A DNA stretch of 64,000 nt from Alteromonadaceae bacterium (GCA_965279005.1 CBDIHK010000024.1:166562-230561); one strand, 5' to 3'; shown: positions 52,585 to 63,964, counted from the stretch's first letter. A program made the numbers and translations. The notes: generated by a model from the sequence alone, not told the origin.

Positions 52585-54936
52585 CTAGAATAGGCCGAGT
52601 TGGCTGGAGGCGATTTGTTCAAACTTTAATCCGACAAAGGGCAAAATCCCCTCTGCAATTGGTTTAATCTGTTTTTCAATGTAATGCTCATAGTCCAAAC
52701 GACTTTCCTGGTATTCCACCGGTTCCGGCCCGTTGATAGTAAGCACATACTTAATCCAACCCTTATTCTGGTACTGCAACTGCCTACCAAGTGCAGCATT
52801 GCGTTCGTCGGCAATGCGGGCCGCCTTTACGTGTGGTGGCACGTTTTTCACGTACTTGTCCAAAGGTTGCCGTAGGCGTTTCCGGTACACCAGCATATCA
52901 TCCAGTGTGCCGCTGCGGGTTTGTTCTATGGTTTCCAGGATGTAGTGGCTAACATCCTGGCCTGAAAAGACCCGCTGGTACAAAGCAGTTTGGAAGTTTT
53001 TGGCCAATGCGGTCCAGTCTGAACGGACTGACTCCAAGCCTTTGAACACCAGCTCATCGCCAGCTTCCGTGGTTTTTAAGCCGGCATAGCGCTTTTTACT
53101 GCCCTTGTCCGAACCGCGGATAGTGGGCATCAAAAACTGGCTGAAATAAGTTTCGAATTCCAGTTCCAAAAAGCATTCTAGCTGGAAATCTTCCGACAAC
53201 TTGTTTTGCCAGTTTTGGTTGATCATTTTGGCCAAGGATTGGCCTATTAGATTGGCTTGCCCTGCATCCACATCATCACCCAACCAAACAAAGGTCGAGT
53301 CGGTGTCGCCATAGATAACCTTGTAACCTTCTGCTTCAATCCAGGCGGCGCTAGTTTGCATTATCTCATGGCCGCGCATTGTGATTGAGCTGGCTAGCCT
53401 TGTATCGTAAAACCGGCAGCCACCGGAACCGAGCACACCGTAAAAGGAATTCATTAGGATTTTTATAGCTTGGGAGCGGGCGCTGTCTTTTGCTGTTTTG
53501 GCCTTGTCCCGTTCATTCCAAAGCTGGGTAATAATATCGGGTAGAAAGTGCTTGTCGCGATCAAAAAACGCCCCCTTAAAACCCGGTATAGCATCATCAT
53601 TTTGGCGCAACCCCTCAATCAGCCCCAATGGGTCAATCTTGAAGGTACGGATAATCGACGGATACAGGCTTTTGAAGTCCAGTACCAGTACATTGCGGTA
53701 TAGGCCAGGCAACGAATCCATCACATACCCGCCTGGGCTAGCTAAGCCTCCCCCTGCAGGTAAATTAGGTGCAACATAGCCTGCCCGGTGCAATTTAGGT
53801 AAATACAAGTTGGTAAAAGCTGCAACTGAACCGCCCGCCCGATCCAGATCCAAGCCGGTTAACTGGCTACGTAAAATTAAAAAATCGAGTAGTTGGGTTT
53901 TCTCGAATATCTTTAAAACCAGGATGCAGTCTTGGAGGTTGTATTCTGCCAGCTGTACCTTGTTGAACTGGAAATCGTGGTTGATATGTGCCATTCGGTT
54001 TTGCACGTCATCCACTTTCTTGCCTTCACCTAGCAACTGTTGTGATACAGATTCAAGGCTAAAGCTGTCAAACTGGTAGGTGGCTGATTTCAGGGCATCG
54101 ATTCCGTCCAGTACCACCCGGCCTGCCAAATCCAAGAAACCTTGCCCGCCGTTGCGGGACTCGCGCCAATTCGCTGCCGTTTCACCCCTGCCAATAATGA
54201 GCTGCATTTGATGCTGCTTTGCCCGGCGCAGCAATAGCCGAAAATCAAACGCAACCACACTCCAACCCACAATAATGTCGGGATCGTATTGGTTAAACTG
54301 GCTGACAAAGGTGTCCAGCAAGTGGGCTTCATCGCTAACCCAGGTTATCCAAGCAGGGGCGCCTGCTTGGCTGTCACCGATCATAATTACTGACCGGTAG
54401 CCGTCATCGGCGGCCAAACCAATGGAATAGAGTTCGCCTGTTTCACTGCATTCAATGTCCAGGGATAGCACCCGCAAATTGGGTAGGTATTCGCTGGGTT
54501 TTAGTTGGCAGTTATGCCAACGTCCTGACGCTTGTGGTTCACCTTTAAAACTGGCGCTGCCATAGGTAAACCGCTCCATCAAAAACCGGTCGGCGAGGCG
54601 GATATCATCCTCATAACAGGTGATATGATTGGATTTTAGGTGCTCCCTGGCAGTAAAAAAGGTTTTGCTATCGTTAAAATAGAGGGCAGTAACAGGCTCT
54701 TGCTGGTAAGTTTTTAGCGAGACCGTACGGCTTTGGAATGGCAATGTCTGGCTGTCGAGTGTCGCTTTTGCTTCTGGATACTGGGAACTGGCGACAAACA
54801 AAACAAACGGCTGGGGAGGCGTGGTCAAACAGGTACTGCCATCGGGTGTTGCTAACCAGAACTTCAAATAGGTGAGGCCATTCTGCTCATATTGTTGTTT
54901 GGTCAGGATAAAGCCTGTTCCCGTCGCTGGCACCAT
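52585..54936 (-). CDS. polB: DNA polymerase II (family B)
   Basis: 783 aa. Exo motif LSLDIECS, and polymerase motifs DFKSLYPSII and YGDTDS. Confidence 0.95.
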   Translation of the reverse strand: MVPATGTGFILTKQQYEQNGLTYLKFWLATPDGSTCLTTPPQPFVLFVASSQYPEAKATLDSQTLPFQSRTVSLKTYQQEPVTALYFNDSKTFFTAREHLKSNHITCYEDDIRLADRFLMERFTYGSASFKGEPQASGRWHNCQLKPSEYLPNLRVLSLDIECSETGELYSIGLAADDGYRSVIMIGDSQAGAPAWITWVSDEAHLLDTFVSQFNQYDPDIIVGWSVVAFDFRLLLRRAKQHQMQLIIGRGETAANWRESRNGGQGFLDLAGRVVLDGIDALKSATYQFDSFSLESVSQQLLGEGKKVDDVQNRMAHINHDFQFNKVQLAEYNLQDCILVLKIFEKTQLLDFLILRSQLTGLDLDRAGGSVAAFTNLYLPKLHRAGYVAPNLPAGGGLASPGGYVMDSLPGLYRNVLVLDFKSLYPSIIRTFKIDPLGLIEGLRQNDDAIPGFKGAFFDRDKHFLPDIITQLWNERDKAKTAKDSARSQAIKILMNSFYGVLGSGGCRFYDTRLASSITMRGHEIMQTSAAWIEAEGYKVIYGDTDSTFVWLGDDVDAGQANLIGQSLAKMINQNWQNKLSEDFQLECFLELEFETYFSQFLMPTIRGSDKGSKKRYAGLKTTEAGDELVFKGLESVRSDWTALAKNFQTALYQRVFSGQDVSHYILETIEQTRSGTLDDMLVYRKRLRQPLDKYVKNVPPHVKAARIADERNAALGRQLQYQNKGWIKYVLTINGPEPVEYQESRLDYEHYIEKQIKPIAEGILPFVGLKFEQIASSQLGLF

Positions 54937-55113
54937 TGCTCCGCTTTAATTACGCAAGGCTGGATTATGGCGTTGGCTAGCCTTAAGTACAATACACAGT
55001 GCCTGTCCGTGCAGACAAAGTGTGGCAGTAGTTGCGATTTCAATGCAGGGTCTATGCTTGGGAGGATGCTTTGACACATCCTGTACACCCCCCCAAGCCC
55101 CTTAGGTAACTTG

Positions 55114-56493
55114 TTAGCCGATAAAGCCAATCGGTGCCTGGCCACTGGCCGGGTCGTAGAACCGGGTAATGTTTGGCAAAATGTCTGGCAACACGCTTGG
55201 CGCCACGCCAAACCAAAGGGCTAGTTCACCAAAGTATTGGTCAAGCGAGGTAGTTGGCATCAACACCCCCCTACCGGTATCCAATGGATTGCCAAGCTGG
55301 AGGCTAGGGTAGGTGCCATAAGCGGAACCGCCCCGTACTGCCCCACCCATGATCATGGCGTTGCCGCCCCAGCCATGGTCTGAACCTCGGCCATTGGAAG
55401 ACAGGGTACGGGCGAAGTCTGAGGTAGTGAAGGTGGTCACTTGGTTGGCCATACCCATTTCATTAATGGCAGCTTGGAACGAACTTAAACCTGCATCTAA
55501 AACTGTGAGCAACTGGTTCAGGGACGCAGTGAGTTCATCGTGGTGATCCCATCCGCCCAAAGTGACAAAAAACGTTTGCCGCTGCATCCCCAGGGTTTGG
55601 TTGGCTGCGATGGTTTTGGCCACCATTTGCATTTGCGACGAGAATTCATCGTTACCAAATTGGGTCGTGAATGGAGATGTTCCCGCCACTGCTGCGGCAA
55701 ATTCAGAGTTGGCCGCAATAGAGTCGTTGAATAGTTTCTGGTATGTGCGCCGGAACAAGTTGTTATATTCCTGCCCATAGATTTGGTTAATGGCTGCGCT
55801 CCTGGTGCTATTGCCCAACTCATCTTCAATGCCACTAATGGTGGCCGTCGGGGCATCGGCGCTACCGACGCTATAATAATCAGTCAGCCTACCTGCTTGG
55901 AACTCATTCGCGCCTGAAGTCGAGATGCTCATGGAAATACGCTGGCTACTGTTTTGTGAGGCTAGGATATCCGCCATGCGGCCGCCCCAGCCGGTGGCGC
56001 TGCGCACATCTGGAATAGCCGTTTGCCATTGGCTGATTTGGTCTGAGTGGGACTGCAAGCCCAACGGCAATTTTGCGGTACCATTGGCCAATGCCTGGGT
56101 ACTGGTAGGTTCAACCAAAGTACCGACGTTGCTTAAAAAGGCCAGGTTGCCACTGTTGTAGAGGGATTGCAGCCCAGTCATAGCTGGATGCAGGCCCAAG
56201 GTGCGCCCGTTGTTCTGGCTATTATTGATCGCAAGCAATTGCGCTTTGGCCAAGGCCAAGTCGGTGCGGGTATTACGGTATTGCTGGTAATAAGTATCGT
56301 CGCTTGGCACCAGCATATTGAACGAGTCGGCACCACCTGCCAATAACACGCATACCAGGGCTTTGTAGTCATTGCTTTGGGCGCTGGCCTTGGCCATTGC
56401 CCCAAGCTGGGCTGCGCCAGCCAAAGTCATGGCTGAAAGGGCATGGCCCGAATGGCGTAAGAATGTCCGTCTTGAAAGTTTATGTTGTTTCAT
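55114..56493 (-). CDS. DUF1501-family protein (sulfatase/alkaline-phosphatase-like fold) with a Tat signal
   Basis: 459 aa. Twin-arginine motif SRRTFLR, plus LLAGGADSFN and GGWDHH, which are typical of DUF1501. Confidence 0.9.
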   Translation of the reverse strand: MKQHKLSRRTFLRHSGHALSAMTLAGAAQLGAMAKASAQSNDYKALVCVLLAGGADSFNMLVPSDDTYYQQYRNTRTDLALAKAQLLAINNSQNNGRTLGLHPAMTGLQSLYNSGNLAFLSNVGTLVEPTSTQALANGTAKLPLGLQSHSDQISQWQTAIPDVRSATGWGGRMADILASQNSSQRISMSISTSGANEFQAGRLTDYYSVGSADAPTATISGIEDELGNSTRSAAINQIYGQEYNNLFRRTYQKLFNDSIAANSEFAAAVAGTSPFTTQFGNDEFSSQMQMVAKTIAANQTLGMQRQTFFVTLGGWDHHDELTASLNQLLTVLDAGLSSFQAAINEMGMANQVTTFTTSDFARTLSSNGRGSDHGWGGNAMIMGGAVRGGSAYGTYPSLQLGNPLDTGRGVLMPTTSLDQYFGELALWFGVAPSVLPDILPNITRFYDPASGQAPIGFIG

Positions 56494-56555
56494 TTTGCTA
56501 AACCTTTATCTAATAGCCAACGGCAGATGCTTGTCTGCCGCTGGCCTTAATCAAC

Positions 56556-59195
56556 TTAAATTGCCACTGCGTAATCAGGGGAAATGGCAAGGAGATAAAC
56601 CGCGGCCGCGACGCGCTCCTGGTGGTCTTCAATGGCTTCGATTACCGTTTTGATGGCTTCCCGCGTGCCGCTGGTTAGGGTGCCGTAGGTCATAACCGTA
56701 TCTAGCCGGTCAAGCAGGGCATCGGCGTCGGCTGCTAAGGCAACTTCTTCTGAAAAATCCAATTTTTCTGCGGGCAGTGCCCCTGAATTATCTAATACCT
56801 GTCCAGTTTCCAACGAGTAGTAAATAACATTCTTGATATCCATAATGGTGGAGGCATTGGTGATTTGGAACTCAGGCGCTACCAAGCCAGCGTCTTTCAG
56901 TTCACCATTGGGTGCATAACTCGGTAAAAAGAAATTAAACACGCTAGGTGCTGACAACACGTATTGCCTGATGGTGGCTGCCATTTCATAGCCATCATCG
57001 CTATAGGTGTTGTCGCTGGATGTGGCGTTGAAGGTCCGCATTAAATGGGCAACCCGCAAGAAGGGTTCCCGCAACCGGCCATCTGAGGATGAGGCCAGGT
57101 TAGGGGCTTGGCGCGCTTCTGGATCCATCAGGATGGCTCGGACAACCGCTTTCATGTCGCCCCGGGCTGAACCTGTTTCGCCATTGAAGGCGGCAGTTAC
57201 ACGTGCAATATAGGCTGGGCTGGGGTTTGACTTGACCAACCGCTGGATCAGCTGTTTGCCGATAAATGGGCCAACGTTAGGGTGGTTGAACAGGTTGTCG
57301 ATGGCGGCATTGATATCTTGCATACCGGTTTGTCCCGCTGGCACAACTTGTCCGCGCAACAAGGTCTTGCTACTGGTGTCGTGGTGTTGCTCATACATTT
57401 TCATGGGCAGCAAGAAAATGTTGGTATCAGAGTCAGATTCCAATTCATCAACATCCCGCTGGCCAAAAGCGTTGGGATCATCGCTGTTCCAGCTTAAGCC
57501 GGTGAATACCTTGGCGAATTCACGTATTTCATCTTGGCCATAGGTTGGGATAGGGTCGCCAGAAGCATCCAATTTGCGCGAACCATCAGGATTCAATTCG
57601 TACAGCCCTATGCTAAACAGCTGCATGACTTCTCGGGCGTAGTTTTCGTCTGGGAAGGTGCCTTTGCTAGGGTCTGCTTTTGCGTTGTGGATATGGCTTA
57701 GGTAAATCCCCATGGTGTGGCTAAGGGTTACGTCTTTCAACAAATCCCTAAAATTGCCCAAGCTATTTTTTATCAAAAGGTCGTAGTAACCCGCCATAGC
57801 AAAGTTATTAATGCCAATTTCCTCAACATTGCTTGAGACAACGAATATTTCACTCAACGCCATGGCAACCCGCTGCCTAACCACATCTGGCGACGTCATC
57901 ACCGTAGTCCACCATCCATCTACCCAAAAGCGTTCAGGATCACCTAGGCGTTCAAATATTACTTCAAATTCTTCGTCGCTCAGGTCTTCATTGGCCAAAT
58001 AGAATTTCTCGACTTCAGCCATTAGGAACTCGGCAAAGGGCAAGGTATAACTCGGCGGCAACTCAAATTGTTGCTCCAACCACATATCAGGACCGGTGGC
58101 AGCAACTTGGGTAATAGTGGCGTAGTTGGCGCCTAGCGTTGCTTGTGACAAGAAGCGCGAGGCGTCATTGGCGGCGTCTTTGTCAACCGTCATTACAGTC
58201 CTGTCAGCCGCTGGATTTGGATTTACAAAACCTGAAGGCTGCTCAACTGTGTTTTCTTCGCAGTCTTCTTCCTGGCCTTCTTCACACTCATCAGAGAAGT
58301 CTTCGCAGTCTTCTTCCTGGCCTTCTTCGCACTCATCCATGAAGTCTTCACAGTCTTCTTCCTGGCCTTCTTCACACTCATCAGAAAAGTCTTCGCAGTC
58401 CTCTTCCTGGCCGTCTTCGCACTCATCTGTGAAGTCTTCGCAGTCTTCTTCCTGGCCGTCTTCGCACTCATCAGAAAAGTCTTCGCAGTCTTCTTCCTGG
58501 CCTTCTTCACATTCATCAGAGAAGTCTTCGCAGTCTTCTTCCTGGCCTTCTTCACACTCATCAGAGAAGTCTTCGCAGTCTTCTTCCTGGCCTTCTTCGC
58601 ACTCATCTGTGAAGTCTTCGCAGTCTTCTTCCTGGCCTTCTTCACACTCTTCAGAGAAGTCTTCGCAGTCTTCTTCGTTACCTTCTTCGCACTCTTCAGT
58701 GAAATCTTCGCAGTCTTCTTCTTGGCCTTCTTCGCACTCTTCAGTGAAATCTTCGCAGTCTTCTTCGTTACCTTCTTCACACTCATCAGAGAAGTCTTCA
58801 CAGTCTTCTTCTTGGCCGTCTTCGCACTCCTCTGTGAAGTCTTCGCAGTCTTCTTCGTCACATTCCTCGGGTGGGCCGATTATCTCTATACACCACTCTG
58901 GGTCTTCGATGCAGATCCGCAAAAGTTCACGACAGAGCTCGCGGTCTTCGCAGATTTCTTGGATGAATTCACAGGCTTCGTCGCCATCGCAATCTATGTC
59001 CTGGCCAACGATTTGTCGCCTTAGTTGCTGGCTTGCAGATAATGCTGAAAAAGCGGGTTGGTTGATAAGTTTTGCTGTGTTCTCTTTGGCAAAAATGTCA
59101 AATGTGGTAAATGCCAATGTGAGGTAAAGCAGCGAAAACAACATGCTGTGCCAGGCAAACCTTCGGGTTTTGCCGGAAGAAGTATTGTATTTCAT
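56556..59195 (-). CDS. DUF1800-family protein with an N-terminal Cys-rich hyper-acidic tandem-repeat extension
   Basis: 879 aa. A Sec signal peptide, then 13 copies of CEDF(T/S)(D/E)ECE(E/D)G(Q/N)EED, then a DUF1800 body (PDENYAREVMQLFSIGL). Confidence 0.88.
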   Translation of the reverse strand: MKYNTSSGKTRRFAWHSMLFSLLYLTLAFTTFDIFAKENTAKLINQPAFSALSASQQLRRQIVGQDIDCDGDEACEFIQEICEDRELCRELLRICIEDPEWCIEIIGPPEECDEEDCEDFTEECEDGQEEDCEDFSDECEEGNEEDCEDFTEECEEGQEEDCEDFTEECEEGNEEDCEDFSEECEEGQEEDCEDFTDECEEGQEEDCEDFSDECEEGQEEDCEDFSDECEEGQEEDCEDFSDECEDGQEEDCEDFTDECEDGQEEDCEDFSDECEEGQEEDCEDFMDECEEGQEEDCEDFSDECEEGQEEDCEENTVEQPSGFVNPNPAADRTVMTVDKDAANDASRFLSQATLGANYATITQVAATGPDMWLEQQFELPPSYTLPFAEFLMAEVEKFYLANEDLSDEEFEVIFERLGDPERFWVDGWWTTVMTSPDVVRQRVAMALSEIFVVSSNVEEIGINNFAMAGYYDLLIKNSLGNFRDLLKDVTLSHTMGIYLSHIHNAKADPSKGTFPDENYAREVMQLFSIGLYELNPDGSRKLDASGDPIPTYGQDEIREFAKVFTGLSWNSDDPNAFGQRDVDELESDSDTNIFLLPMKMYEQHHDTSSKTLLRGQVVPAGQTGMQDINAAIDNLFNHPNVGPFIGKQLIQRLVKSNPSPAYIARVTAAFNGETGSARGDMKAVVRAILMDPEARQAPNLASSSDGRLREPFLRVAHLMRTFNATSSDNTYSDDGYEMAATIRQYVLSAPSVFNFFLPSYAPNGELKDAGLVAPEFQITNASTIMDIKNVIYYSLETGQVLDNSGALPAEKLDFSEEVALAADADALLDRLDTVMTYGTLTSGTREAIKTVIEAIEDHQERVAAAVYLLAISPDYAVAI
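58263..58847 (-). repeat. 13 tandem 45-bp in-frame repeats inside the DUF1800 gene
   Basis: The period-45 unit gcagtcttcttcctggccttcttc(a/g)cactcatc(a/t)g(a/t)gaagtcttc is visible directly in the sequence. Coordinates were derived from the translation. Confidence 0.9.
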
Positions 59196-59275: not shown

Positions 59276-59305
59276 AAACGATTGGTTCTTGCGAACTATT
59301 CCACA
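59276..59305 (-). promoter_or_regulatory. ECF-type promoter candidate upstream of the DUF1800-DUF1501 genes
   Basis: The minus strand reads GTGGAATAGTTCGCAAGAACCAATCGTTT. This is 20/29 identical, with the same spacing, to the motif upstream of the S8 protease gene. Confidence 0.45.
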
Positions 59306-59381
59306 ATCTAAAAAATTGCTGCTGAGCAAAGCGTGTTTTTTTCTGCTAGTCTGCAAGCAAAGCCACTAGTTTGTTTTGAGC

Positions 59382-60290
59382 ATGAAATTAAAGTGTTTGC
59401 TGTTTTCTGTGTTAGTTGTCCTGGCCAACCACAACGCCTATAGCAAAGAAGTGCATAGTTTTAACGGCGCCATCGAACTCGCCACAGAAAATGATTCCAC
59501 GGTTGTGGTGGATGAAATTGACAATGTTGCGCGGGACAGCAGTAGTAGCTGGAAATACAAACTCAATGCCCGCTACCGCTACCGCCCTTATGAGCACACC
59601 AAGGCGTCCTTGAGTTTTACCTTCTCTGATAAAAACTACAAGCAAGACGATAGTTTCAACAGTGAATTACGCATGTTTTCAGCTAGTATCAGCAGGGAGT
59701 TTGAGCATTTCACTTTAGGGCTAAGGGCACAGGATATCGATTCTAAACTGGGCGGCCAGGATTTTTTAACGATAGAACAAGTATCTCCTTACCTCACTTT
59801 CTTTTTGAGTAAAAAGTGGTTTGTTAACTTGAGTTACCGCCATGCTGATAAGGAAATTGTCAGTAATTCGTCCCGTTCCGGCGACAGTGATTTGTTTAAT
59901 GCCGACTTGTACTTTTTCCAACAAGGGGTACGCCAGTTCTGGATAGCCTCAGTGCGTCACAAGTCTGAACAAGCCCAAGACCCCATTTTTAGCTATGATC
60001 TGCAACAATTTAGGTTAGTGTATTCCCAGCGCTTTGATTGGTGGCAATGGCAGCATAAGCTGCGGTTATCGTGGCGTTTCCAGGAGCGGGACTACGATTC
60101 AGCTATCAATCCTGATTTAAATGACTTTCGCCGCGACATAAGGCGCCAGTGGCGTTTCGAATGGGAAGCTGAGTTCCATGAAGATTGGTTTTTGATTTTG
60201 GAGTTAAAACGCAATGACAATAATTCCAATTTTACGACATCAGATTACAACCAAAATGTGACCGGCTTAGCGCTTAAGTACGAGTTTTAG
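59382..60290 (+). CDS. outer-membrane beta-barrel protein, unknown family
   Basis: Signal peptide MKLKCLLFSVLVVLANHNAYS, alternating amphipathic strands, and a C-terminal ...LALKYEF (terminal Phe). The track ORF starts at TTG 59376. Confidence 0.7.
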   Translation: MKLKCLLFSVLVVLANHNAYSKEVHSFNGAIELATENDSTVVVDEIDNVARDSSSSWKYKLNARYRYRPYEHTKASLSFTFSDKNYKQDDSFNSELRMFSASISREFEHFTLGLRAQDIDSKLGGQDFLTIEQVSPYLTFFLSKKWFVNLSYRHADKEIVSNSSRSGDSDLFNADLYFFQQGVRQFWIASVRHKSEQAQDPIFSYDLQQFRLVYSQRFDWWQWQHKLRLSWRFQERDYDSAINPDLNDFRRDIRRQWRFEWEAEFHEDWFLILELKRNDNNSNFTTSDYNQNVTGLALKYEF

Positions 60291-63200
60291 CGAGCAGTTC
60301 TGTCACTTTTTGCTTTAATTTCACTTGCACTTTTTGAGTGCCCAATACAGGCAATAACCCATGGCCAAACTGTGGGTCAAAGCCGCGCTTACCCAAGTCT
60401 AAACAATTGTTAAACAAGTCCATCCAAGGTGCAGGGCCCGTTGTTTGGTAGTGTCCTTGGGCATTGGCTGCCAAATAAGCTGCAACAAATGGGGCGGCCA
60501 TGGAAGTACCGGTCTGGGTGCCATAGCTTTGGTTTGGTTGTGCAGTGATCACATCAACCCCATATGCCGCTAGATCGATATGTTGGCCCTGTACAGCGCG
60601 TTTATACAAATTCAAGTCGCTATCCACTGCGGTAACCGCAATGGCGCAATCGTAAGCCGCAGGAAACAGCGGACTCGATAAAGGGCCGGCATTACCTGCT
60701 GCGGCCACCAAGGTAATGCCTTTTTCACACAGCTTGTTTACAGAAAATTTAAGCAGGCGGTTAGCAGGACCGGCGAGGCTCATATTGACCACCTTGACGT
60801 CCTGCTGCAATAACCAATCTAAGCCCTTGATAATGTTTAAGGTTGTGGCAATGCTACCGCCTTGTTTATCGTTAAAAAACACCGAAGCACTATAGAGTTG
60901 GGCATTAGGTAGTAGCCCGCGGTAATCGTTACTATCGGCTACCAGGATTGACGCAACTGCAGTACCGTGTTGGTAGTCTTTTTTATGTTGTCCTTGGATA
61001 AAATGCCGTTGTTTGATCTGTGCAGCTTGCAAAGATTGGTGTTCGGTATCGACAGCGGTATCCACCATACCTAATTTTATACCGTTGCCATTTAGTTGCA
61101 TGACTTGGCCTGGAATGATGCCGCCTTTATCTGCTTTATTTGATTGGGCATAGCGATATATATGGTTGAAGTCAGCGATGCTATTGTCCCGGTTTAACCT
61201 AGTTAAAACTGTTTGGTAGTCCCGTTGCAAGTCAAATGAGGCTGGTGCGACTACTTTTGCCACAATGGCATCTAGTGCTTCCAGGCTCTCTTGCTCTTTG
61301 AATTGATAACCTTCTTTTTCTAATTCGGCTTTAGTCTCTGCATCTGCCATGATCAACCATTCGTTTGTCCATATCTCGTTGCCGTCAAAGTCTTCAAACA
61401 ACTGATCGGTTTCATCAATCACTGCTTGTTCTGGCTGTTCCTGTTCTTGCCAGAAGCGGCTTAATGCTGCTTCCGGTGATGGCTGGTCATTGAATCCGTC
61501 CTTGCGCATTTCGTTAGTCCCATCGAAATCGAAGTCGAAAGCATCATGGCCGTTTGTACCGCCTTCTTCAGTATCTAAATCTTCATCATCTTCGTTCCCG
61601 AACCCTACTTCATGTTCGGAGCCTTCATGGTCATCTTCGTTTTGGTGGTCGAGTTCTTCGTCTTCAAAATTGTCCTCTTCTGCAGCGAATTCATCCTCGC
61701 CTTCGAATTCGCCTTCATCTTCGAATTCGCCCTCGTCTTCGAACTCACCTTCATCTTCGAACTCCCCCTCGTCTTTGAATTCATCCCCCTCTTCGAATTC
61801 ATCCCCCTCTTCGAATTCATCCCCCTCTTCGAATTCATCCCCCTCTTCGAATTCTTCCTCGTCTTCGAATTCATCCTCATGTTCGAATTCATGCTCAGCT
61901 TCGAATTCGTCTTCATCTTCGAATTCATGCTCACCTTCGAATTCGTCTTCTAGTTCTTCGTCGAATATTTCATCTTCTTCAAATTCTTCATCAAAACCAT
62001 CTTCAATTTCATTTTCTAGATCGTCTTCCGTTTCATCTTCCCAATCGTTTTCCAGCTCATCCTCGGTGTCTTCTTCTATCTCCTCTTCGACTTCGTCCTC
62101 GGTGTCTGCTTCGATTTCCTCTTCGACTTCATCCTCGGTGTCTTCTTCGATCTCGTCTTCGACTTCATCCTCGGTGTCTTCTTCTATCTCGTCTTCGACT
62201 TCATCCTCAGTGTCTTCTTCGATTTCCTCTTCGACTTCGTCCTCGGTGTCTTCTTCGATTTCCTCTTCGACCTCATCCTCGGTGTCTTCTTCGATTTCCT
62301 CTTCGACTTCGTCCTCGGTGTCTTCTTCGATTTCCTCTTCGACCTCATCCTCGGTGTCTTCTTCGATTTCCTCTTCGACCTCGTCCTCGGTGTCTTCTTC
62401 TATCTCGTCTTCGACTTCGTCCTCGGTGTCTTCTTCGATTTCGTCTTCGACCTCATCCTCGGTGTCTTCTTCGATTTCGTCTTCGACCTCATCCTCGGTG
62501 TCTTCTTCGATTTCCTCTTCGACTTCGTCCTCGGTGTCTTCTTCGATTTCGTCTTCGACTTCATCCTCGGTGTCTTCTTCGATTTCGTCTTCGACCTCAT
62601 CCTCGGTGTCTTCTTCGATTTCCTCTTCGACTTCGTCCTCGGTGTCTTCTTCGATTTCCTCTTCGACTTCATCCTCGGTGTCTTCTTCTATCTCGTCTTC
62701 GACTTCGTCCTCGGTGTCTTCTTCGATTTCCTCTTCGACTTCATCCTCGGTGTCTTCTTCGATTTCGTCTTCGACCTCATCCTCGGTGTCTTCTTCGATT
62801 TCCTCTTCGACTTCATCCTCGGTGTCTTCTTCGATTTCCTCTTCGAATTCATCCTCGGTGTCTTCTTCGATCTCGTCTTCGACTTCGTCCTCGGTGTCTT
62901 CTTCGATTTCCTCTTCGACCTCGTCCTCGGTGTCTTCTTCGATTTCGTCTTCGACTTCATCCTCGGTATCTTCTTCGATCTCGTCTTCGACCTCGTCTTC
63001 GGTGTCTTCTTCGATCTCGTCTTCGACTTCATCCTCGGTGTCTTCTTCGATTTCGTCTTCGACCTCGTCCTCGGTGTCTTCTTCGATGTCATCCTCTATA
63101 TCATCTTCCCAATCATCTTCAGGATCAGACATAAAAAAACTATTGTTGGAATGGTTGTTGGGTAATAGGGCAAAATCCGATCTGATACGTTGGGCCGTTG

Positions 63201-63303
63201 CCTGATTTGCAATACCGAGTGACGCGCAATAGGCCAATACCAGCAATAACAATGCTGTTGGTTTTAGTTGCTTTATGAAGAGACGCAGATTAATTTTGAT
63301 CAT
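60274..63303 (-). CDS. S8 (subtilisin-like) serine peptidase with a giant polyacidic tandem-repeat region between the signal peptide and the pro/catalytic domains
   Basis: Catalytic triad context MVDTAVD / HGTAVAS / GTSMAAPF. The N-terminus MIKINLRLFIKQLKPTALLLLVLAYCASLG starts at ATG 63303. About 29 copies of EDTEDEVE(D/E)EIE. Confidence 0.9.
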   Translation of the reverse strand: MIKINLRLFIKQLKPTALLLLVLAYCASLGIANQATAQRIRSDFALLPNNHSNNSFFMSDPEDDWEDDIEDDIEEDTEDEVEDEIEEDTEDEVEDEIEEDTEDEVEDEIEEDTEDEVEDEIEEDTEDEVEEEIEEDTEDEVEDEIEEDTEDEFEEEIEEDTEDEVEEEIEEDTEDEVEDEIEEDTEDEVEEEIEEDTEDEVEDEIEEDTEDEVEEEIEEDTEDEVEEEIEEDTEDEVEDEIEEDTEDEVEDEIEEDTEDEVEEEIEEDTEDEVEDEIEEDTEDEVEDEIEEDTEDEVEDEIEEDTEDEVEEEIEEDTEDEVEEEIEEDTEDEVEEEIEEDTEDEVEEEIEEDTEDEVEEEIEEDTEDEVEDEIEEDTEDEVEDEIEEDTEDEVEEEIEADTEDEVEEEIEEDTEDELENDWEDETEDDLENEIEDGFDEEFEEDEIFDEELEDEFEGEHEFEDEDEFEAEHEFEHEDEFEDEEEFEEGDEFEEGDEFEEGDEFEEGDEFKDEGEFEDEGEFEDEGEFEDEGEFEGEDEFAAEEDNFEDEELDHQNEDDHEGSEHEVGFGNEDDEDLDTEEGGTNGHDAFDFDFDGTNEMRKDGFNDQPSPEAALSRFWQEQEQPEQAVIDETDQLFEDFDGNEIWTNEWLIMADAETKAELEKEGYQFKEQESLEALDAIVAKVVAPASFDLQRDYQTVLTRLNRDNSIADFNHIYRYAQSNKADKGGIIPGQVMQLNGNGIKLGMVDTAVDTEHQSLQAAQIKQRHFIQGQHKKDYQHGTAVASILVADSNDYRGLLPNAQLYSASVFFNDKQGGSIATTLNIIKGLDWLLQQDVKVVNMSLAGPANRLLKFSVNKLCEKGITLVAAAGNAGPLSSPLFPAAYDCAIAVTAVDSDLNLYKRAVQGQHIDLAAYGVDVITAQPNQSYGTQTGTSMAAPFVAAYLAANAQGHYQTTGPAPWMDLFNNCLDLGKRGFDPQFGHGLLPVLGTQKVQVKLKQKVTELLAKTRT
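61777..61848 (-). repeat. four tandem 18-bp repeats (encoding GDEFEE), flanked by related GEFEDE repeats
   Basis: gaattcatccccctcttc occurs four times in tandem. Confidence 0.85.
62038..63081 (-). repeat. about 29 tandem 36-bp in-frame repeats inside the S8 peptidase gene
   Basis: The + strand unit is gac(t/c)tc(a/g)tcctcggtgtcttcttc(g/t)at(t/c)tc(c/g)tcttc. I counted 29 EDTEDE units in the translation. Confidence 0.9.
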
Positions 63304-63360
63304 AAACGCACGCAAAAAAGATAGCTGCCTATAATAAGGGCTTGATTAACCATTACCTTA

Positions 63361-63389
63361 TTAACGTTTAAGTATAGTGAACTATTTCA
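63361..63389 (-). promoter_or_regulatory. ECF-type promoter candidate upstream of the S8 peptidase gene
   Basis: The minus strand reads GTGAAATAGTTCACTATACTTAAACGTTA (GAAAT-N17-CGTTA). Confidence 0.45.
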
Positions 63390-63412: not shown

Positions 63413-63441
63413 GCTGGAATAAGTTTCAGGCTATAACCGTT
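63413..63441 (+). promoter_or_regulatory. ECF-type (autoregulatory) promoter candidate upstream of the ECF sigma gene
   Basis: CTGGAATAAGTTTCAGGCTATAACCGTTA (GGAAT-N17-CGTTA). It ends 20 nt before the ATG. Confidence 0.4.
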
Positions 63442-63460: not shown

Positions 63461-63964
63461 ATGCAGATATCGCAAAATGAACTGAAAAAAATACTGGTTA
63501 AGGAAATGCCCCGTCTACGCAGGTTTGCCTATTCATTGACGGGAAGTAAAGCGGATGCGGACGATTTGGTGCAGAACCTGATCCTGAAAATGCTCAATAA
63601 AGGGTTGCCAGATTCGGTACAACCATTGCCCTGGTTGTTCCGTGTTTGCAAAAACCTCTGGTTAGATGAAATTAGAGCACGAGATGTGAGGGTCAGGGCG
63701 GTGCAAGAAAAGAAAATCCCACAAGCAGAACAAGAATCGAAACAAGATTTGCACGAAATCGCCTATTCAGCTGAGCAGGTGATGCAGGTGATGCAATCTT
63801 TACCAGAGGAGCAACGTGTTATTATCAGCCTGGTGCTGGTGGAGGGCTTTAGCTACAGCGAAGCGGCTGATGTGCTGGAGATCCCCAAAGGTACCGTTAT
63901 GAGTCGATTGTCACGGGCGCGGCATAAGTTGCTCGACTTATTAGAGCAAGGTAAACAGAGTTAA
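63461..63964 (+). CDS. ECF-family RNA polymerase sigma-70 factor
   Basis: 167 aa. Region 2 (LRRFAYSLTGSKADADDLVQN, PWLFRVCKNLWLDEIR) and region 4 (GFSYSEAADVLEIPKGTVMSRLSRARHKL). Confidence 0.9.
   Translation: MQISQNELKKILVKEMPRLRRFAYSLTGSKADADDLVQNLILKMLNKGLPDSVQPLPWLFRVCKNLWLDEIRARDVRVRAVQEKKIPQAEQESKQDLHEIAYSAEQVMQVMQSLPEEQRVIISLVLVEGFSYSEAADVLEIPKGTVMSRLSRARHKLLDLLEQGKQS

What the first reader, a model, noticed from the sequence alone, without database searches (positions are those of the whole stretch)
60274..63303. S8 subtilase with about 29 copies of EDTEDEVE(D/E)EIE, plus further D/E/F/G repeats, placed ahead of its prodomain
The domain order read from the translation is:
- a signal peptide;
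- an acidic region from about residue 64 to about residue 585 of the 1013-aa track ORF;
- a segment that looks like an I9-type inhibitor prodomain (EWLIMADAETKAELEKEGYQF...AKVVAP);
- an ordinary S8 catalytic domain.

Nine of the twelve residues in the main unit are Asp or Glu. The repeat copies differ almost only by D/E swaps and synonymous changes, which suggests selection for charge rather than sequence, plus recombinational homogenisation.

Subtilase prodomains are normally cleaved off. The polyacidic polypeptide could therefore be released as a separate product on maturation (inference).
Basis: partly seen in the sequence, partly recalled or inferred. Interest (0 to 1): 0.72.

Follow-up and report, generated by a model that had tools for sequence, protein, structure and literature searches.

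The report
Giant acidic tail on subtilase precursor
A marine bacterium encodes a secreted subtilisin-type protease whose removable pro-piece carries a roughly 600-residue, almost purely acidic repeat tract; this is the most extreme case found here of an undescribed protease family that sits next to, and appears to be switched on by, its own stress-type sigma factor.

Summary
ORF 60274..63303 (minus strand, 1009 aa) reads: signal peptide, 608-aa acidic extension (net charge -382), a prodomain-like beta-alpha-beta-beta-alpha-beta module, then an intact S8 catalytic domain. The extension holds 27 in-register EDTEDEVE(D/E)EIE units plus degenerate ones, and 14 six-residue D/E/F/G units.

Pfam's I9 model is silent. 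AlphaFold2 plus Foldseek, however, place the module on unprocessed pro-subtilisin E and pro-Tk-subtilisin.

- **Family trait.** An acidic, mostly 4-residue-periodic N-terminal extension of about 40-500 aa recurs across a large uncharacterised S8 clade. Different repeat units have expanded independently. The window's is the longest seen.
- **Conserved cassette.** The gene lies in a fixed arrangement: anti-sigma and ECF sigma divergent from the S8 gene, with a 14-stranded outer-membrane barrel convergent.
- **Shared promoter.** GGAATAA-N15/16-CGTT sits upstream of the sigma gene and, as a TGAAATA variant, of the S8 gene. Here it also precedes a DUF1800-DUF1501 operon whose first protein has its own acidic, Cys-rich array.

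The nearest relative has about 10 copies of the same unit.

The function of the acidic tract is unknown. Its release together with the prodomain is plausible but untested. I rate this a new variant of a known kind, of moderate to high interest.

The parts
60274..63303 (-). S8 subtilase precursor gene: 1009 aa from the ATG, with an in-frame TTG at 63315 giving 1013 aa. The stop codon is at 60274-60276.
   Evidence: No clear Shine-Dalgarno sequence precedes either start. The nearest relative also has a signal peptide followed by 'DPEDD' at the start of its acidic tract.
63193..63303 (-). Predicted Sec signal peptide, residues 1-37 (MIKINLRLFIKQLKPTALLLLVLAYCASLGIANQATA|Q).
   Evidence: Read directly from the sequence; no predictor was run. 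Every full-length homologue whose sequence was read has an equivalent hydrophobic N-terminus.
61366..63192 (-). N-terminal extension of the pro-region, residues 38-646: 608 aa by the split at Gln38/Arg39, 388 D+E against 6 K+R, net charge -382, 72.6 kDa.
   Evidence: The tract with at least 50% D/E is residues 53-590 (61534-63147).
62057..63087 (-). 36-bp tandem array with 28.6 copies, encoding EDTEDEVE(D/E)EIE.
61686..61944 (-). 18-bp tandem array with 14.4 copies, encoding EFEEGD / EFEDEG-type units.
61150..61365 (-). Prodomain-like beta-alpha-beta-beta-alpha-beta module, residues 647-718 (NEWLIMAD...FNHIYRY). The predicted autoprocessing junction lies near Y718|A719 (YRY|AQS).
   Evidence: AlphaFold2 model. 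Foldseek to 3whi and 2e1p precursors. Conserved family motifs W68, G84, P106, H133 of alignment A1. The cleavage site is inferred by analogy with subtilisin (...HAY|AQSVPYG) and was not tested.
60277..61149 (-). S8A catalytic domain, residues 719-1009 (31 kDa, pI 9.0). Asp748 (61060-61062), His779 (60967-60969), oxyanion Asn871 (60691-60693), Ser934 (60502-60504).
63361..63389 (-). ECF-type promoter-like motif directed at the S8 gene: TGAAATA-N16-CGTTAA.
   Evidence: The same element is found in L004, L009 and L091. The family-wide motif is enriched over shuffles.
63416..63441 (+). ECF-type promoter-like motif directed at the sigma gene: GGAATAA-N15-CGTT (putative autoregulation).
63461..63964 (+). 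ECF sigma factor gene (167 aa), divergent from the S8 gene. The cognate anti-sigma gene lies beyond the window end.
   Evidence: In all 8 looked-up loci a 223-256 aa single-pass anti-sigma follows the sigma gene.
59376..60290 (+). Outer-membrane 14-stranded beta-barrel gene (304 aa), convergent with the S8 gene and overlapping its 3' end by 17 bp.
59277..59302 (-). Second exact GGAATA-N16-CGTT motif, about 80 bp upstream of the DUF1800 start codon.
   Evidence: only two matches in the 64-kb window, 0.17 expected. The same motif lies upstream of DUF1800 in L010 and L091 (read from the intergenic sequence).
55114..59195 (-). DUF1800 (879 aa, 56556-59195) and DUF1501 (459 aa, 55114-56493) operon. 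DUF1800 carries a 45-bp array of 13.4 copies (58255-58856) encoding the acidic, Cys-rich unit CEDF(S/T)(D/E)ECE(E/D)G(Q/N)EED.

Best explanation
**What it is.** The gene encodes the precursor of a Sec-exported subtilase of the subtilisin type (S8, D-H-S triad). Its prodomain is I9-like by fold and is preceded by a 608-residue, non-globular polyanionic extension built from tandem repeats.

**Shown here.**
- The domain order and the intact catalytic residues.
- Membership of a large, uncharacterised S8 clade in which an acidic, usually 4-residue-periodic N-terminal extension is common and highly variable in length.
- A conserved cassette: anti-sigma and ECF sigma divergent from the S8 gene, with a 14-stranded outer-membrane barrel convergent in the marine clade.
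- The same ECF-type promoter motif in front of the sigma gene and the S8 gene. In this lineage it also precedes a DUF1800-DUF1501 operon whose first product is polyacidic too.

**Inferred.**
- The ECF sigma switches on the protease, and here DUF1800-DUF1501 as well, in response to an unknown envelope signal.
- After export the prodomain assists folding. The enzyme then cuts at the prodomain/catalytic junction (near ...HIYRY|AQS...). This leaves a 31-kDa protease and an acidic pro-fragment of about 81 kDa, which stays bound as an inhibitor until it dissociates or is degraded.
- The acidic extension therefore acts on the zymogen or as a separate polyanion, not on the mature enzyme.

**Most likely role (low confidence).** It is an extended, highly charged, cation-binding and solubilising appendage that governs the latency or location of the zymogen.

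**Origin of the array.** Its length is free to drift by slippage or unequal recombination of the 36-bp unit: about 10 copies in the nearest relative against about 29 here.
For: **Architecture.**
- ORF and repeat arrays.
- Pfam S8 hit; subtilisin alignment with the D/H/S motifs; invariant D167, H198, N290 and S353 in alignment A1.
- AlphaFold2 model with pLDDT 85 and a beta-alpha-beta-beta-alpha-beta module; best structural matches are unprocessed pro-subtilisins.

**Coding frame.** Eight of the nine variable repeat positions are third codon positions. The signal peptide and the 'DPEDD' start of the tract are conserved in the nearest relative.

**Family trait.**
- N-terminal extensions of about 20-355 aa (after a nominal 35-residue signal region) with 30-65% D/E and almost no K/R. 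The hydrophobic period is exactly 4.0, or its harmonic 2.0, in most marine members.
- Independent expansions of other acidic units in other lineages.
- No other protein among the 150 best cluster representatives exceeds 878 aa.

**Cassette.**
- All 8 looked-up loci have it.
- Among metagenome loci with enough flank, 28 of 41 have the sigma gene (26 of them divergent) and 29 of 41 the anti-sigma gene. In the closest subset, 7 of 7 have the sigma gene and 12 of 13 the barrel.
- The anti-sigma identity rests on zf-HC2 hits in 12 of 20 members plus a transmembrane segment.

**Regulation.**
- The strict motif occurs toward the S8 gene in 15 of 31 intergenic regions and toward the sigma gene in 22 of 31, against 0.09 expected.
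- Instances upstream of DUF1800 occur in three genomes.

**Copy-number change.**

**Precedent for a stable pro-region product.** B. subtilis WprA is processed into CWBP23 and CWBP52 (PMC8767453).
Against: - No experiment or expression data exist. The promoter assignment rests on motif enrichment only.
- The Pfam I9 model does not match, so the prodomain assignment rests on a predicted structure.
- The cleavage site is assigned by analogy.
- Nothing tested here shows cation binding, latency control or the cellular location.
- Net charge of the extension does not correlate with charge of the catalytic domain across the family (Spearman rho 0.12, p = 0.16). There is therefore no sign of an intramolecular electrostatic partnership.
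- The barrel gene carries the ECF motif in only 2 of 22 loci.
- The strict co-occurrence with sigma/anti-sigma would equally fit a regulatory protease.
Confidence: 0.5

Rival explanations
1. **Regulatory (site-1) protease.** The subtilase is part of the signalling pathway. Once activated it cleaves the periplasmic domain of the cognate anti-sigma factor and so releases the ECF sigma. Because the sigma also drives the S8 gene, this would be positive feedback. The acidic extension would be the sensor or gate, for example responding to divalent cations or to cationic peptides.
For: - The sigma/anti-sigma/S8 trio is conserved far beyond the marine clade, including soil and freshwater relatives that lack both the acidic tract and the barrel. 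In a few loci the three genes are co-oriented like an operon.
- The catalytic domain is minimal, with no extra substrate-binding domains. Its best NCBIfam matches are dedicated processing proteases (mycosin, QhpE, PatA), all far below their cut-offs.
- The anti-sigma has a conserved periplasmic domain of about 110 aa with two invariant Cys and a CRE(F/Y) motif that matches no known fold.
Against: - The S8 gene has its own ECF-type promoter, the usual signature of a regulon output.
- No known ECF system uses an S8 site-1 protease. The only subtilase-linked ECF group found in the literature, ECF54, lacks an anti-sigma factor (PMC8999054).
- Nothing here tests cleavage.
Confidence: 0.2
2. **Neutral runaway repeat.** The extension is a tolerated disordered linker. 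Its length and sequence drift by slippage, and the 29-copy array has no function beyond being harmless.
For: - Extension length varies from about 40 to 640 aa within one family, with unrelated repeat units in different lineages.
- There are about 10 copies in the nearest relative against about 29 here.
- Minimal members of about 420 aa keep the same cassette with only a 39-aa acidic segment.
Against: - The frame is kept open over 1.8 kb, and the variation is almost entirely synonymous or D/E.
- T, V and I are strictly conserved in register between two species whose catalytic modules are 56% identical.
- Acidity and the 4-residue period recur in many independent expansions, and K/R are almost excluded.
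- A second polyacidic array sits in the co-regulated DUF1800, and the window has no other tandem arrays.
Confidence: 0.2
3. **Export or surface-display leader.** The unfolded polyanionic chain threads through the neighbouring 14-stranded barrel. That barrel is a TPR-less, distantly Slam/DUF560-like outer-membrane protein. Threading would carry or tether the protease, or only the acidic brush, to the cell surface.
For: - The barrel is convergent with the S8 gene, and overlaps its 3' end, in the closest clade: 12 of 13 evaluable metagenome loci and all 8 looked-up loci.
- Fifteen of 24 barrels give weak Pfam SlipAM hits, the best at 4.5e-7.
- The AlphaFold2 model has 14 strands (pLDDT 90), the same count as the monomeric channels CymA, OmpG and FadL.
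- Marine DUF560 proteins are reported to lack classical cargo (PMC12282271).
Against: - The window protein scores 20.6 bits against a SlipAM cut-off of 22, and it has no TPR domain.
- The subtilase lacks the C-terminal beta-barrel cargo domain that defines known type 11 secretion cargo.
- Barrels also accompany members with short, weakly acidic extensions (L024, L027, L046), and acidic members exist without a barrel (L022, L032).
- BBP2 and generic outer-membrane barrel models hit about as well as SlipAM.
Confidence: 0.1
4. **Artefact.** Either the array is collapsed or expanded by misassembly, or the true start lies downstream so that the acidic tract is not translated.
For: - A 1-kb array of 36-bp units at 93% identity is hard to assemble from short reads.
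- An independent short-read assembly of the relative ends inside its array (L092).
- No convincing ribosome-binding site precedes ATG 63303 or TTG 63315.
- The window's own S8 protein did not appear among the database hits, whereas its barrel neighbour did.
Against: - The variation falls at third codon positions in exactly this frame.
- The frame is continuous from the signal peptide to the catalytic domain.
- The same signal, acidic array, prodomain and S8 order occurs in the nearest relative and across hundreds of homologues.
- A start after the tract would leave an I9-type secreted protease without a signal peptide.
- Misassembly could change the copy number but not the existence of the array.
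Confidence: 0.05

Closest known systems
Subtilisin E / BPN' and Tk-subtilisin precursors (S8A catalytic domain with an I9 propeptide acting as intramolecular chaperone and inhibitor)
   Same: - The D-H-S triad and oxyanion Asn sit in the canonical motifs.
- A beta-alpha-beta-beta-alpha-beta module lies directly before the catalytic domain.
- These precursors are the best structural matches, and the alignment covers their propeptides.
- The junction sequence resembles subtilisin's: ...YRY|AQS... against ...HAY|AQS...
   Different: - The Pfam I9 model does not detect the module.
- About 600 acidic residues precede it, where classical precursors go straight from signal peptide to propeptide.
- The gene is tied to an ECF sigma/anti-sigma pair and an outer-membrane barrel.
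Bacillus subtilis WprA (S8 wall protease whose 96-kDa precursor yields the stable pro-region product CWBP23 plus the protease CWBP52; PMC8767453)
   Same: It is a subtilase with an unusually large N-terminal pro-region that survives as a separate polypeptide after processing.
   Different: WprA is Gram-positive and wall-bound. I do not know CWBP23 to be a polyacidic tandem repeat (from memory; no sequence comparison was run). There is no ECF cassette. Homology of the pro-regions was not tested.
Highly charged repeat stalks and spacers: staphylococcal Ser-Asp (Sdr/Clf) repeat regions, ER/K single alpha-helices, TolA/TonB periplasmic spacers (from my own knowledge; not tested here)
   Same: These are long, low-complexity, strongly charged tandem repeats whose copy number varies. 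Their presumed role is physical (reach, spacing, charge) rather than enzymatic. Several family members have A/E/K/Q-type units (AEKQAEEE, AAEEAEKAAEEAAEQ) typical of stable single helices.
   Different: - The tract sits on the pro-piece of a protease and has a free N-terminus after signal-peptide cleavage, so it is not obviously anchored at either end.
- The window's unit has beta-branched T/V/I every fourth residue and almost no basic residues.
- One family member uses a Pro-containing 5-residue unit (P0151), which argues against a universal helix.
ECF sigma systems with proteases in their conserved neighbourhood (for example group ECF54, with subtilase, carboxypeptidase or CHAT proteins; PMC8999054)
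   Same: An ECF sigma gene is conserved next to a subtilase gene.
   Different: ECF54 is described as lacking an anti-sigma factor, with the protease proposed to degrade the sigma itself. Here a classical single-pass anti-sigma is always present, the subtilase has a signal peptide, and it carries the sigma's promoter motif. The ECF group of the window's sigma was not determined.
Type 11 secretion / Slam outer-membrane proteins (DUF560, Pfam SlipAM)
   Same: The neighbouring barrel has 14 predicted strands and gives weak SlipAM matches that span nearly the whole profile.
   Different: [quoted passage not shown] Generic barrel families match equally well.
Mycosin, QhpE and PatA/PatG (best NCBIfam hits for the catalytic domain)
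   Same: These are compact S8 domains with no large accessory domains.
   Different: All scores are far below the family cut-offs: 105 against 279, 74 against 165, and 50 against 421. The genomic context is neither type VII secretion, nor quinohemoprotein amine dehydrogenase, nor cyanobactin biosynthesis.

Membership tests
Peptidase family S8 (Pfam PF00082) | Profile match above the curated cut-off | tested here: met
   113.9 bits against a cut-off of 21.8, E = 1.2e-32, covering the full profile 1-288.
Peptidase family S8 (Pfam PF00082) | Asp-His-Ser catalytic triad in that order, plus the oxyanion Asn, in conserved motifs | tested here: met
   D748 (GMVDTAVD), H779 (HGTAVAS), N871 (AAAGNAG) and S934 (GTSMAAPF). 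All four are invariant in 62 family sequences.
Peptidase inhibitor I9 propeptide | Sequence match to the Pfam I9 model | tested here: not met
   The Pfam scan at E <= 0.01 returned only PF00082.
Peptidase inhibitor I9 propeptide | Beta-alpha-beta-beta-alpha-beta fold placed immediately N-terminal to the catalytic domain, as in solved pro-subtilisins | tested here: met
   The AlphaFold2 elements are E62-72, H74-82, E86-93, E98-104, H115-122 and E127-136, at pLDDT about 85-95. Foldseek's top hits 3whi and 2e1p align over 377-430 columns, which includes their propeptides. This is a predicted structure, not a solved one.
Peptidase inhibitor I9 propeptide | Autocatalytic removal, and inhibition or chaperoning of the cognate enzyme | not testable with these tools
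   This needs expression, a Ser934Ala mutant and N-terminal mapping.
Mycosin (TIGR03921) | Equivalog score above the cut-off, with a type VII secretion context | tested here: not met
   105.4 bits against a cut-off of 278.75. The neighbours are an ECF sigma, an outer-membrane barrel and DUF1800.
QhpE (NF049966) | Equivalog score above the cut-off | tested here: not met
   73.6 bits against a cut-off of 165.
ECF sigma / class I anti-sigma pair (neighbouring genes) | Sigma-70 regions 2 and 4 only, in a protein of about 170 aa | tested here: met
   Sigma70_r2, Sigma70_r4_2 and Sigma70_ECF hits, and TIGR02937 at 85 bits against a cut-off of 42.9.
ECF sigma / class I anti-sigma pair (neighbouring genes) | Adjacent membrane anti-sigma with an N-terminal anti-sigma (zf-HC2-type) domain | tested here: inconclusive
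   The gene lies beyond the window end. In related loci, 12 of 20 members hit zf-HC2 (best 2.3e-6, all below or near the cut-off) and all have one transmembrane segment.
ECF sigma regulon membership of the S8 gene | Promoter of the same -35/-10 type as the autoregulated sigma promoter | tested here: met
   The motif is enriched in both directions of the intergenic region, 15 of 31 and 22 of 31 against 0.09 expected. The window instances are at 63361-63389 and 63416-63441. Transcription itself was not tested.
Type 11 secretion / Slam outer-membrane protein (neighbouring barrel) | DUF560 (SlipAM) profile match above the cut-off | tested here: not met
   The window protein scores 20.6 bits against a cut-off of 22. 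Fifteen of 24 orthologues match at E <= 0.01, the best at 4.5e-7.
Type 11 secretion / Slam outer-membrane protein (neighbouring barrel) | N-terminal periplasmic TPR domain ahead of the barrel | tested here: not met
   The protein is 304 aa, and the barrel begins at residue 27 of the model straight after the signal helix.
Type 11 secretion / Slam outer-membrane protein (neighbouring barrel) | 14-stranded barrel | tested here: met
   The AlphaFold2 model (pLDDT 90) has 14 long strands. The nearest solved folds are the 14-stranded CymA, OmpG and FadL.
Type 11 secretion cargo (would apply to the S8 protein) | C-terminal 8-stranded beta-barrel (TbpBBD-type) domain | tested here: not met
   The protein ends about 25 residues after the catalytic domain, in a predicted helix. 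The defining feature is taken from PMC12282271.

The most novel reading that the evidence does not exclude
The four-gene cassette (ECF sigma, membrane anti-sigma, polyanion-tailed subtilase, 14-stranded barrel) could be a previously unrecognised envelope sensing or defence module. In this reading the polyanionic pro-region is the working part. It would either thread through the barrel to the cell surface, or capture cations or cationic peptides in the periplasm. That would gate activation of the subtilase, which then cleaves the anti-sigma factor. In this lineage the same sigma also deploys a second polyacidic, Cys-rich protein (DUF1800). Polyacidic repeat length would then be a tunable sensor or decoy parameter.
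Probability: 0.1. Interest if true: 0.8.

Novelty: new variant of a known kind. Interest (0 to 1): 0.6.

Why it matters
Subtilase propeptides are a textbook case of intramolecular chaperones. A family in which the propeptide is routinely extended by tens to hundreds of acidic, periodic residues has not been described in anything I could find. Here the extension is about 72 kDa with net charge -382, more than twice the mass of the enzyme.

The family is large (2025 cluster representatives at E <= 1e-30) and common in marine Gammaproteobacteria. It is tied to a dedicated ECF sigma/anti-sigma pair whose signal and output are unknown. Characterising one member would therefore assign a function to thousands of 'S8 family serine peptidase' annotations and to one ECF group.

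The locus also offers three further opportunities:
- a natural test of how a bacterium translates and exports a 500-residue D/E-rich chain, since runs of acidic residues are known to destabilise ribosomes;
- a possible handle on the function of the widespread DUF1800/DUF1501 pair;
- a source of very long natural polyanionic polypeptides for cation-binding or biomineral work.

Tried and rejected
1. **Intramolecular electrostatic pairing.** The window's catalytic domain is basic (pI 9.0, net +5) while the family median is acidic (pI 4.9). Across 128 distinct family members, extension charge and catalytic-domain charge do not correlate (rho 0.12, p = 0.16). The nearest relative has net -1. I dropped this as a general mechanism.

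2. **Literature.** Full-text searches found no description of the cassette or of acidic pro-extensions. Terms covered ECF sigma with subtilisin, subtilase or Peptidase_S8; acidic-repeat propeptides; DUF1800/DUF1501; DUF3379; and type 11 secretion cargo. The supplementary tables of the ECF classification paper were not available.

3. **Anti-sigma periplasmic domain.** A profile search against PDB sequences and a Pfam scan found no informative match.

4. **Barrel against PDB by sequence.** No match. By fold it matches only generic 14-stranded channels, so Slam-likeness stays weak.

5. **ECF motif upstream of the barrel gene.** It is present in only 2 of 22 loci with the strict form (L004, L009), and not in the window.

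6. **Locating the window's own contig.** I tried through its barrel protein, to read the anti-sigma gene; it is not on record.

7. **Genome-collection scan.** This returned only two distant Kordiimonas loci, so the organism was not identified directly. Synteny and the best hits point to Alteromonadaceae near Planctobacterium.

8. **Upstream ORF.** A 17-codon ORF whose stop overlaps the S8 ATG (63300-63353) is not conserved in the nearest relative, so I treat it as chance.

9. **Antisense ORFs.** The long ORFs across the array, such as the 571-aa Ser-rich ORF at 61490-63205, are by-products of the repeat.

Full report

Yes.

Tandem Repeats Finder reports a 36-bp unit with 28.6 copies at 62057-63087 (92% matches, score 1691) and an 18-bp unit with 14.4 copies at 61686-61944. 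These two arrays and one in the neighbouring gene are the only tandem arrays scoring 80 or more in the whole 64-kb window.

In protein register there are 27 units EDTEDE(V/F)E(D/E)EIE, one ADTEDEVEEEIE and three degenerate flanking units. Among the 27 core units, nine of the 36 nucleotide positions vary, and eight of these are third codon positions. Four sites are dimorphic at high frequency. Only the D/E swap at codon 9 and a single V>F change the protein. That pattern fixes the reading frame and shows purifying selection on it.

The tract with at least 50% D/E covers residues 53-590 and is 69% D/E. After the predicted signal peptide, the whole extension before the prodomain is 608 aa, with 388 D+E against 6 K+R. 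Its net charge is -382 and its mass 72.6 kDa.

**2. Domain order**

The N-terminus (MIKINLRLFIKQLKP-TALLLLVLAYCASLGIA-NQATA|Q) has the features of a Sec signal peptide. I read this by eye; no predictor was run.

Pfam finds only Peptidase_S8, at residues 743-986 of the 1013-aa form (E = 1.2e-32). It gives no I9 hit.

A phmmer search against PDB sequences aligns the C-terminal part with subtilisins DY and BPN' (E about 1e-29) through the GxxDTG, HGTxVA, AAAGN and GTSMAxP motifs. In a 62-sequence family alignment the triad residues and the oxyanion Asn are invariant. In the 1009-aa numbering they are D748, H779, N871 and S934.

AlphaFold2, run on the last 428 residues with that alignment, gives mean pLDDT 85. 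It folds a beta-alpha-beta-beta-alpha-beta module (fragment residues 62-136) directly ahead of the catalytic domain.

The best Foldseek matches in the PDB are unautoprocessed pro-subtilisin E (3whi, E = 2e-22, 377 aligned columns) and pro-Tk-subtilisin (2e1p and its mutants, about 425-430 columns), ahead of mature subtilisins, which align over about 255 columns.

The junction ...FNHIYRY|AQSNK... resembles the subtilisin junction ...HAY|AQSVPYG. The cleavage site is an inference.

**3. It is a family trait, and the window is the extreme case**

A search with the C-terminal 428 aa finds more than 2000 relatives. The best named ones are 'S8 family serine peptidase' from Planctobacterium marinum, Aestuariibacter, Glaciecola, Halioglobus and Luminiphilus. 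None is more than 56% identical. An exhaustive HMMER scan of 1.84 billion cluster representatives gives 2025 proteins at E <= 1e-30.

The C-terminal module of about 340-360 aa (prodomain plus catalytic domain) is constant in size. The part before it ranges from about 35 to 400 aa in the first 120 hits and reaches about 510 aa among the representatives. The longest protein other than the window's is 878 aa.

In the marine clade the extension is 30-65% D/E with almost no K/R. A Fourier analysis of hydrophobic positions peaks at exactly 4.0 residues, or the harmonic 2.0, in most members. More distant soil and freshwater relatives have non-acidic extensions.

Different lineages have amplified different units:
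- EDEVEDQVEDEI (P0017);
- EEDIEREI (L010);
- EGELEEEV, AEKQAEEE, AETSAEEE and EEGLEEEM;
- the Pro-containing DEPE(V/I) followed by D- and SG-rich repeats (P0151).

D/E runs are short throughout. In the window, 100 of 157 runs are exactly three residues and the longest is five. In four of the five other members checked the longest run is three; L012 reaches five, and some long members reach four to seven.

What is conserved is therefore acidity, non-globular repetitiveness and, usually, a 4-residue period. The sequence itself is not conserved.

**4. The nearest relative**

A MAG assigned to Alteromonadaceae (GCA_014872785.1, locus L091) has the same gene order as the window: polB, a short-chain dehydrogenase (absent from the window), DUF1501, DUF1800, barrel, S8, sigma, anti-sigma.

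Its S8 protein is 692 aa and carries about 10 copies of EEDTEEDVEEEI. This is the same 12-residue unit with T, V and I in the same register.

Unit-to-unit nucleotide identity is 93% within the window array, 92% within the relative's array and 83% between them. The catalytic modules are only about 60% identical at the nucleotide level and 56% at the protein level.

Five of the six pairs of dimorphic sites in the window array show all four combinations. This fits exchange between units, or independent recent expansion.

An independent short-read assembly of the same relative (L092) ends inside the array. This is a caution that copy numbers in such assemblies, possibly including the window's, are uncertain.

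**5. Genomic context**

The S8 gene belongs to a conserved cassette. In all eight loci retrieved by exact protein look-up (L003, L004, L006, L008, L009, L010, L091 and the L007 duplicate), the arrangement is the same:
- the S8 gene is divergent from an ECF sigma gene (164-173 aa);
- the sigma gene is followed by a 223-256 aa protein;
- the S8 gene is convergent with a 287-307 aa protein.

The window shows the same arrangement as far as it extends: sigma at 63461-63964 and the barrel at 59376-60290.

Among the 80 metagenome loci, 41 have enough upstream sequence to judge. Of these, 28 carry the sigma gene (26 divergent, 2 co-oriented) and 29 the second gene. In the closest subset, 7 of 7 have the sigma gene and 12 of 13 the convergent gene.

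The second gene encodes a single-pass membrane protein. Its N-terminal helix hits the zf-HC2 anti-sigma model in 12 of 20 members. Its periplasmic domain of about 110 aa has two invariant Cys and a CRE(F/Y) motif and matches nothing known.

The convergent gene encodes an outer-membrane barrel. AlphaFold2 gives 14 strands at pLDDT 90. The nearest solved folds are the 14-stranded CymA, OmpG and FadL. Fifteen of 24 orthologues give weak hits to the Slam/DUF560 model and 11 to BBP2. There is no TPR domain.

**6. Regulation**

The sigma/S8 intergenic regions share a bipartite motif, GGAATAA-N15/16-CGT(T/C). It occurs once toward the sigma gene and once toward the S8 gene.

A strict pattern matches toward the S8 gene in 15 of 31 regions, toward the sigma gene in 22 of 31, and in both directions in 12 of 31. 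Shuffled sequences give a mean of 0.09 and a maximum of 2.

In the window the sigma-directed copy is at 63416-63441. The S8-directed copy is at 63361-63389, reads TGAAATA-N16-CGTTAA, and is nearly identical in L004, L009 and L091.

The pattern GGAATA-N16-CGTT has exactly two matches in the window against 0.17 expected. The second, at 59277-59302 on the minus strand, lies about 80 bp upstream of the DUF1800 gene. The same motif precedes DUF1800 in L010 and in L091 (read from the intergenic sequence).

By inference, then, the ECF sigma autoregulates and drives the S8 gene, and in these genomes also DUF1800-DUF1501. The barrel gene has the motif in only two loci.

Synteny with L004 and L009, where polB directly follows the barrel, indicates that DUF1800-DUF1501 is an insertion next to the cassette.

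**7. The second acidic protein**

The window's DUF1800 protein (879 aa) has a signal peptide and a 45-bp array of 13.4 copies (58255-58856). The array encodes CEDF(S/T)(D/E)ECE(E/D)G(Q/N)EED.

The L091 orthologue has related but different acidic, Cys-rich repeats. L010's has an acidic insert flanked by Cys at another position.

So two co-regulated exported proteins carry polyacidic arrays, and the window has no other tandem array. This argues that the polyanionic character matters to whatever this regulon does.

**8. How it most likely works**

*Shown.* The architecture, the family distribution, the cassette and the shared promoter motif.

*Inferred from the established maturation of I9-bearing subtilases.* The precursor is exported by Sec, folds with the help of the prodomain and cuts itself at the prodomain/catalytic junction. 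That leaves the acidic extension on the pro-fragment (about 81 kDa) and not on the 31-kDa enzyme.

B. subtilis WprA shows that a large subtilase pro-region can persist as a separate protein, CWBP23 (PMC8767453).

*Speculative.* The role of the tract is unknown. The generic, sequence-independent conservation of charge and extended character points to a physical role at the zymogen stage. Candidates are cation binding, solubility, steric or electrostatic control of latency, and location.

*The 4-residue period.* Three explanations are possible:
- helical periodicity, since many members have A/E/K/Q units typical of stable single helices;
- a need to interrupt acidic runs, because consecutive D/E residues destabilise translating ribosomes and bulky residues counteract this (bioRxiv 10.1101/2021.02.02.429294);
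- both. The Pro-containing member (P0151) argues against a universal helix.

**9. Rivals**

- **Regulatory protease.** The trio sigma/anti-sigma/S8 is conserved well beyond the acidic, barrel-bearing clade, and the catalytic domain is minimal. The protease could therefore be the site-1 protease for the anti-sigma factor. Its own ECF promoter would then give feedback. Nothing tests this.
- **Neutral repeat drift.** This is contradicted by the frame conservation, the conserved T/V/I positions, the exclusion of K/R and the repeated independent emergence of such tracts.
- **Export or display through the barrel.** This stays possible but weak. The Slam similarity is below threshold, there is no TPR domain and no cargo domain, and the barrel and the acidic tract do not strictly co-occur.
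- **Artefact.** Misassembly could affect the copy number, not the existence of the array.

**10. Novelty and score**

The catalytic domain and prodomain fold are ordinary.

What is unusual is the polyacidic pro-extension, here at an extreme of 608 aa and net charge -382. Also unusual are its recurrence as a family trait, the dedicated ECF sigma/anti-sigma/barrel cassette, and the co-regulated polyacidic DUF1800.

I found no description of any of this in the searchable literature. The only ECF group reported with subtilases, ECF54, lacks an anti-sigma factor.

I classify it as a new variant of a known kind and score interest at 0.6. The feature is real, striking and widespread, with clear experiments available. 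Its function is still unknown, and its core enzyme is conventional.

Noticed in passing
window 58255-58856 (within the DUF1800 gene, 56556-59195, minus strand): This is a second acidic tandem array: a 45-bp unit with 13.4 copies encoding CEDF(S/T)(D/E)ECE(E/D)G(Q/N)EED, placed between the signal peptide and the DUF1800 domain. The orthologue in L091 has different Cys-rich acidic repeats. L010's DUF1800 has an acidic insert elsewhere. Paired Cys in an acidic context suggests metal binding or disulfide-stapled loops.
   Followed up: partly
window 59277-59302 (-), 63361-63389 (-), 63416-63441 (+): Three ECF-type promoter-like motifs (GGAATA/TGAAATA-N15/16-CGTT) point at DUF1800-DUF1501, the S8 gene and the sigma gene. 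They define a small putative regulon. The exact GGAATA-N16-CGTT pattern occurs nowhere else in the window.
   Followed up: yes
window 60274-60290; also L004 11775-11806, L009 9807-9830, L010 7913-7929: The convergent S8 and barrel genes overlap at their 3' ends by 17-32 bp in several genomes. This leaves no room for separate terminators, so antisense or transcriptional-interference coupling is possible.
   Followed up: no
window 52585-59195, compared with L004 and L009: The window is syntenic with Planctobacterium-type genomes (MCP, MerR, OYE, HAD, polB, barrel, S8, sigma). In the window and in L091, however, the DUF1800-DUF1501 operon sits between polB and the barrel. This suggests an insertion that brought, or acquired, the ECF promoter.
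   Followed up: partly
window 63300-63353 (-): A 17-codon upstream ORF (MVNQALIIGSYLFCVRL) has a TGA stop that overlaps the S8 ATG (ATGA). It starts at about the predicted transcription start. It is not conserved in L091, so it is probably chance.
   Followed up: partly
window 61490-63205 (+) and other frames across the array: Long ORFs lie antisense or out of frame across the repeat: a 571-aa Ser-rich ORF, and Lys/Thr/Ser-rich ORFs of 90-134 aa. They are by-products of the repeat. The restriction of variation to third codon positions identifies the acidic frame as the coding one.
   Followed up: yes
window 60277-61149 (catalytic domain): The window's catalytic domain is basic (pI 9.0, net +5), whereas the family median is acidic (pI 4.9, net -9). 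There is no family-wide correlation with extension charge, so the meaning is unclear.
   Followed up: partly
L092 1622-3136 (independent short-read assembly of the L091 organism): The contig ends exactly inside the acidic repeat array. This shows that these arrays break short-read assemblies, so copy numbers in MAGs are not reliable.
   Followed up: yes
related loci: anti-sigma genes, e.g. L091 13629-14339, L004 8651-9325: The cognate anti-sigma factors share a periplasmic domain of about 110 aa with two invariant Cys, a CRE(F/Y) motif and a C-terminal E..LI..GW. The domain matches no Pfam family or PDB sequence. It is the likely signal-sensing part of the system.
   Followed up: partly
related proteins P0151, P0152, P0199, P0209, P0141: Other family members carry long, independently amplified acidic arrays: DEPE(V/I) plus D/SG-rich repeats, EGELEEEV, AEKQAEEE (about 30 copies), AETSAEEE and EEGLEEEM. 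The family appears to be a hotspot for tandem expansion of acidic pro-extensions.
   Followed up: partly
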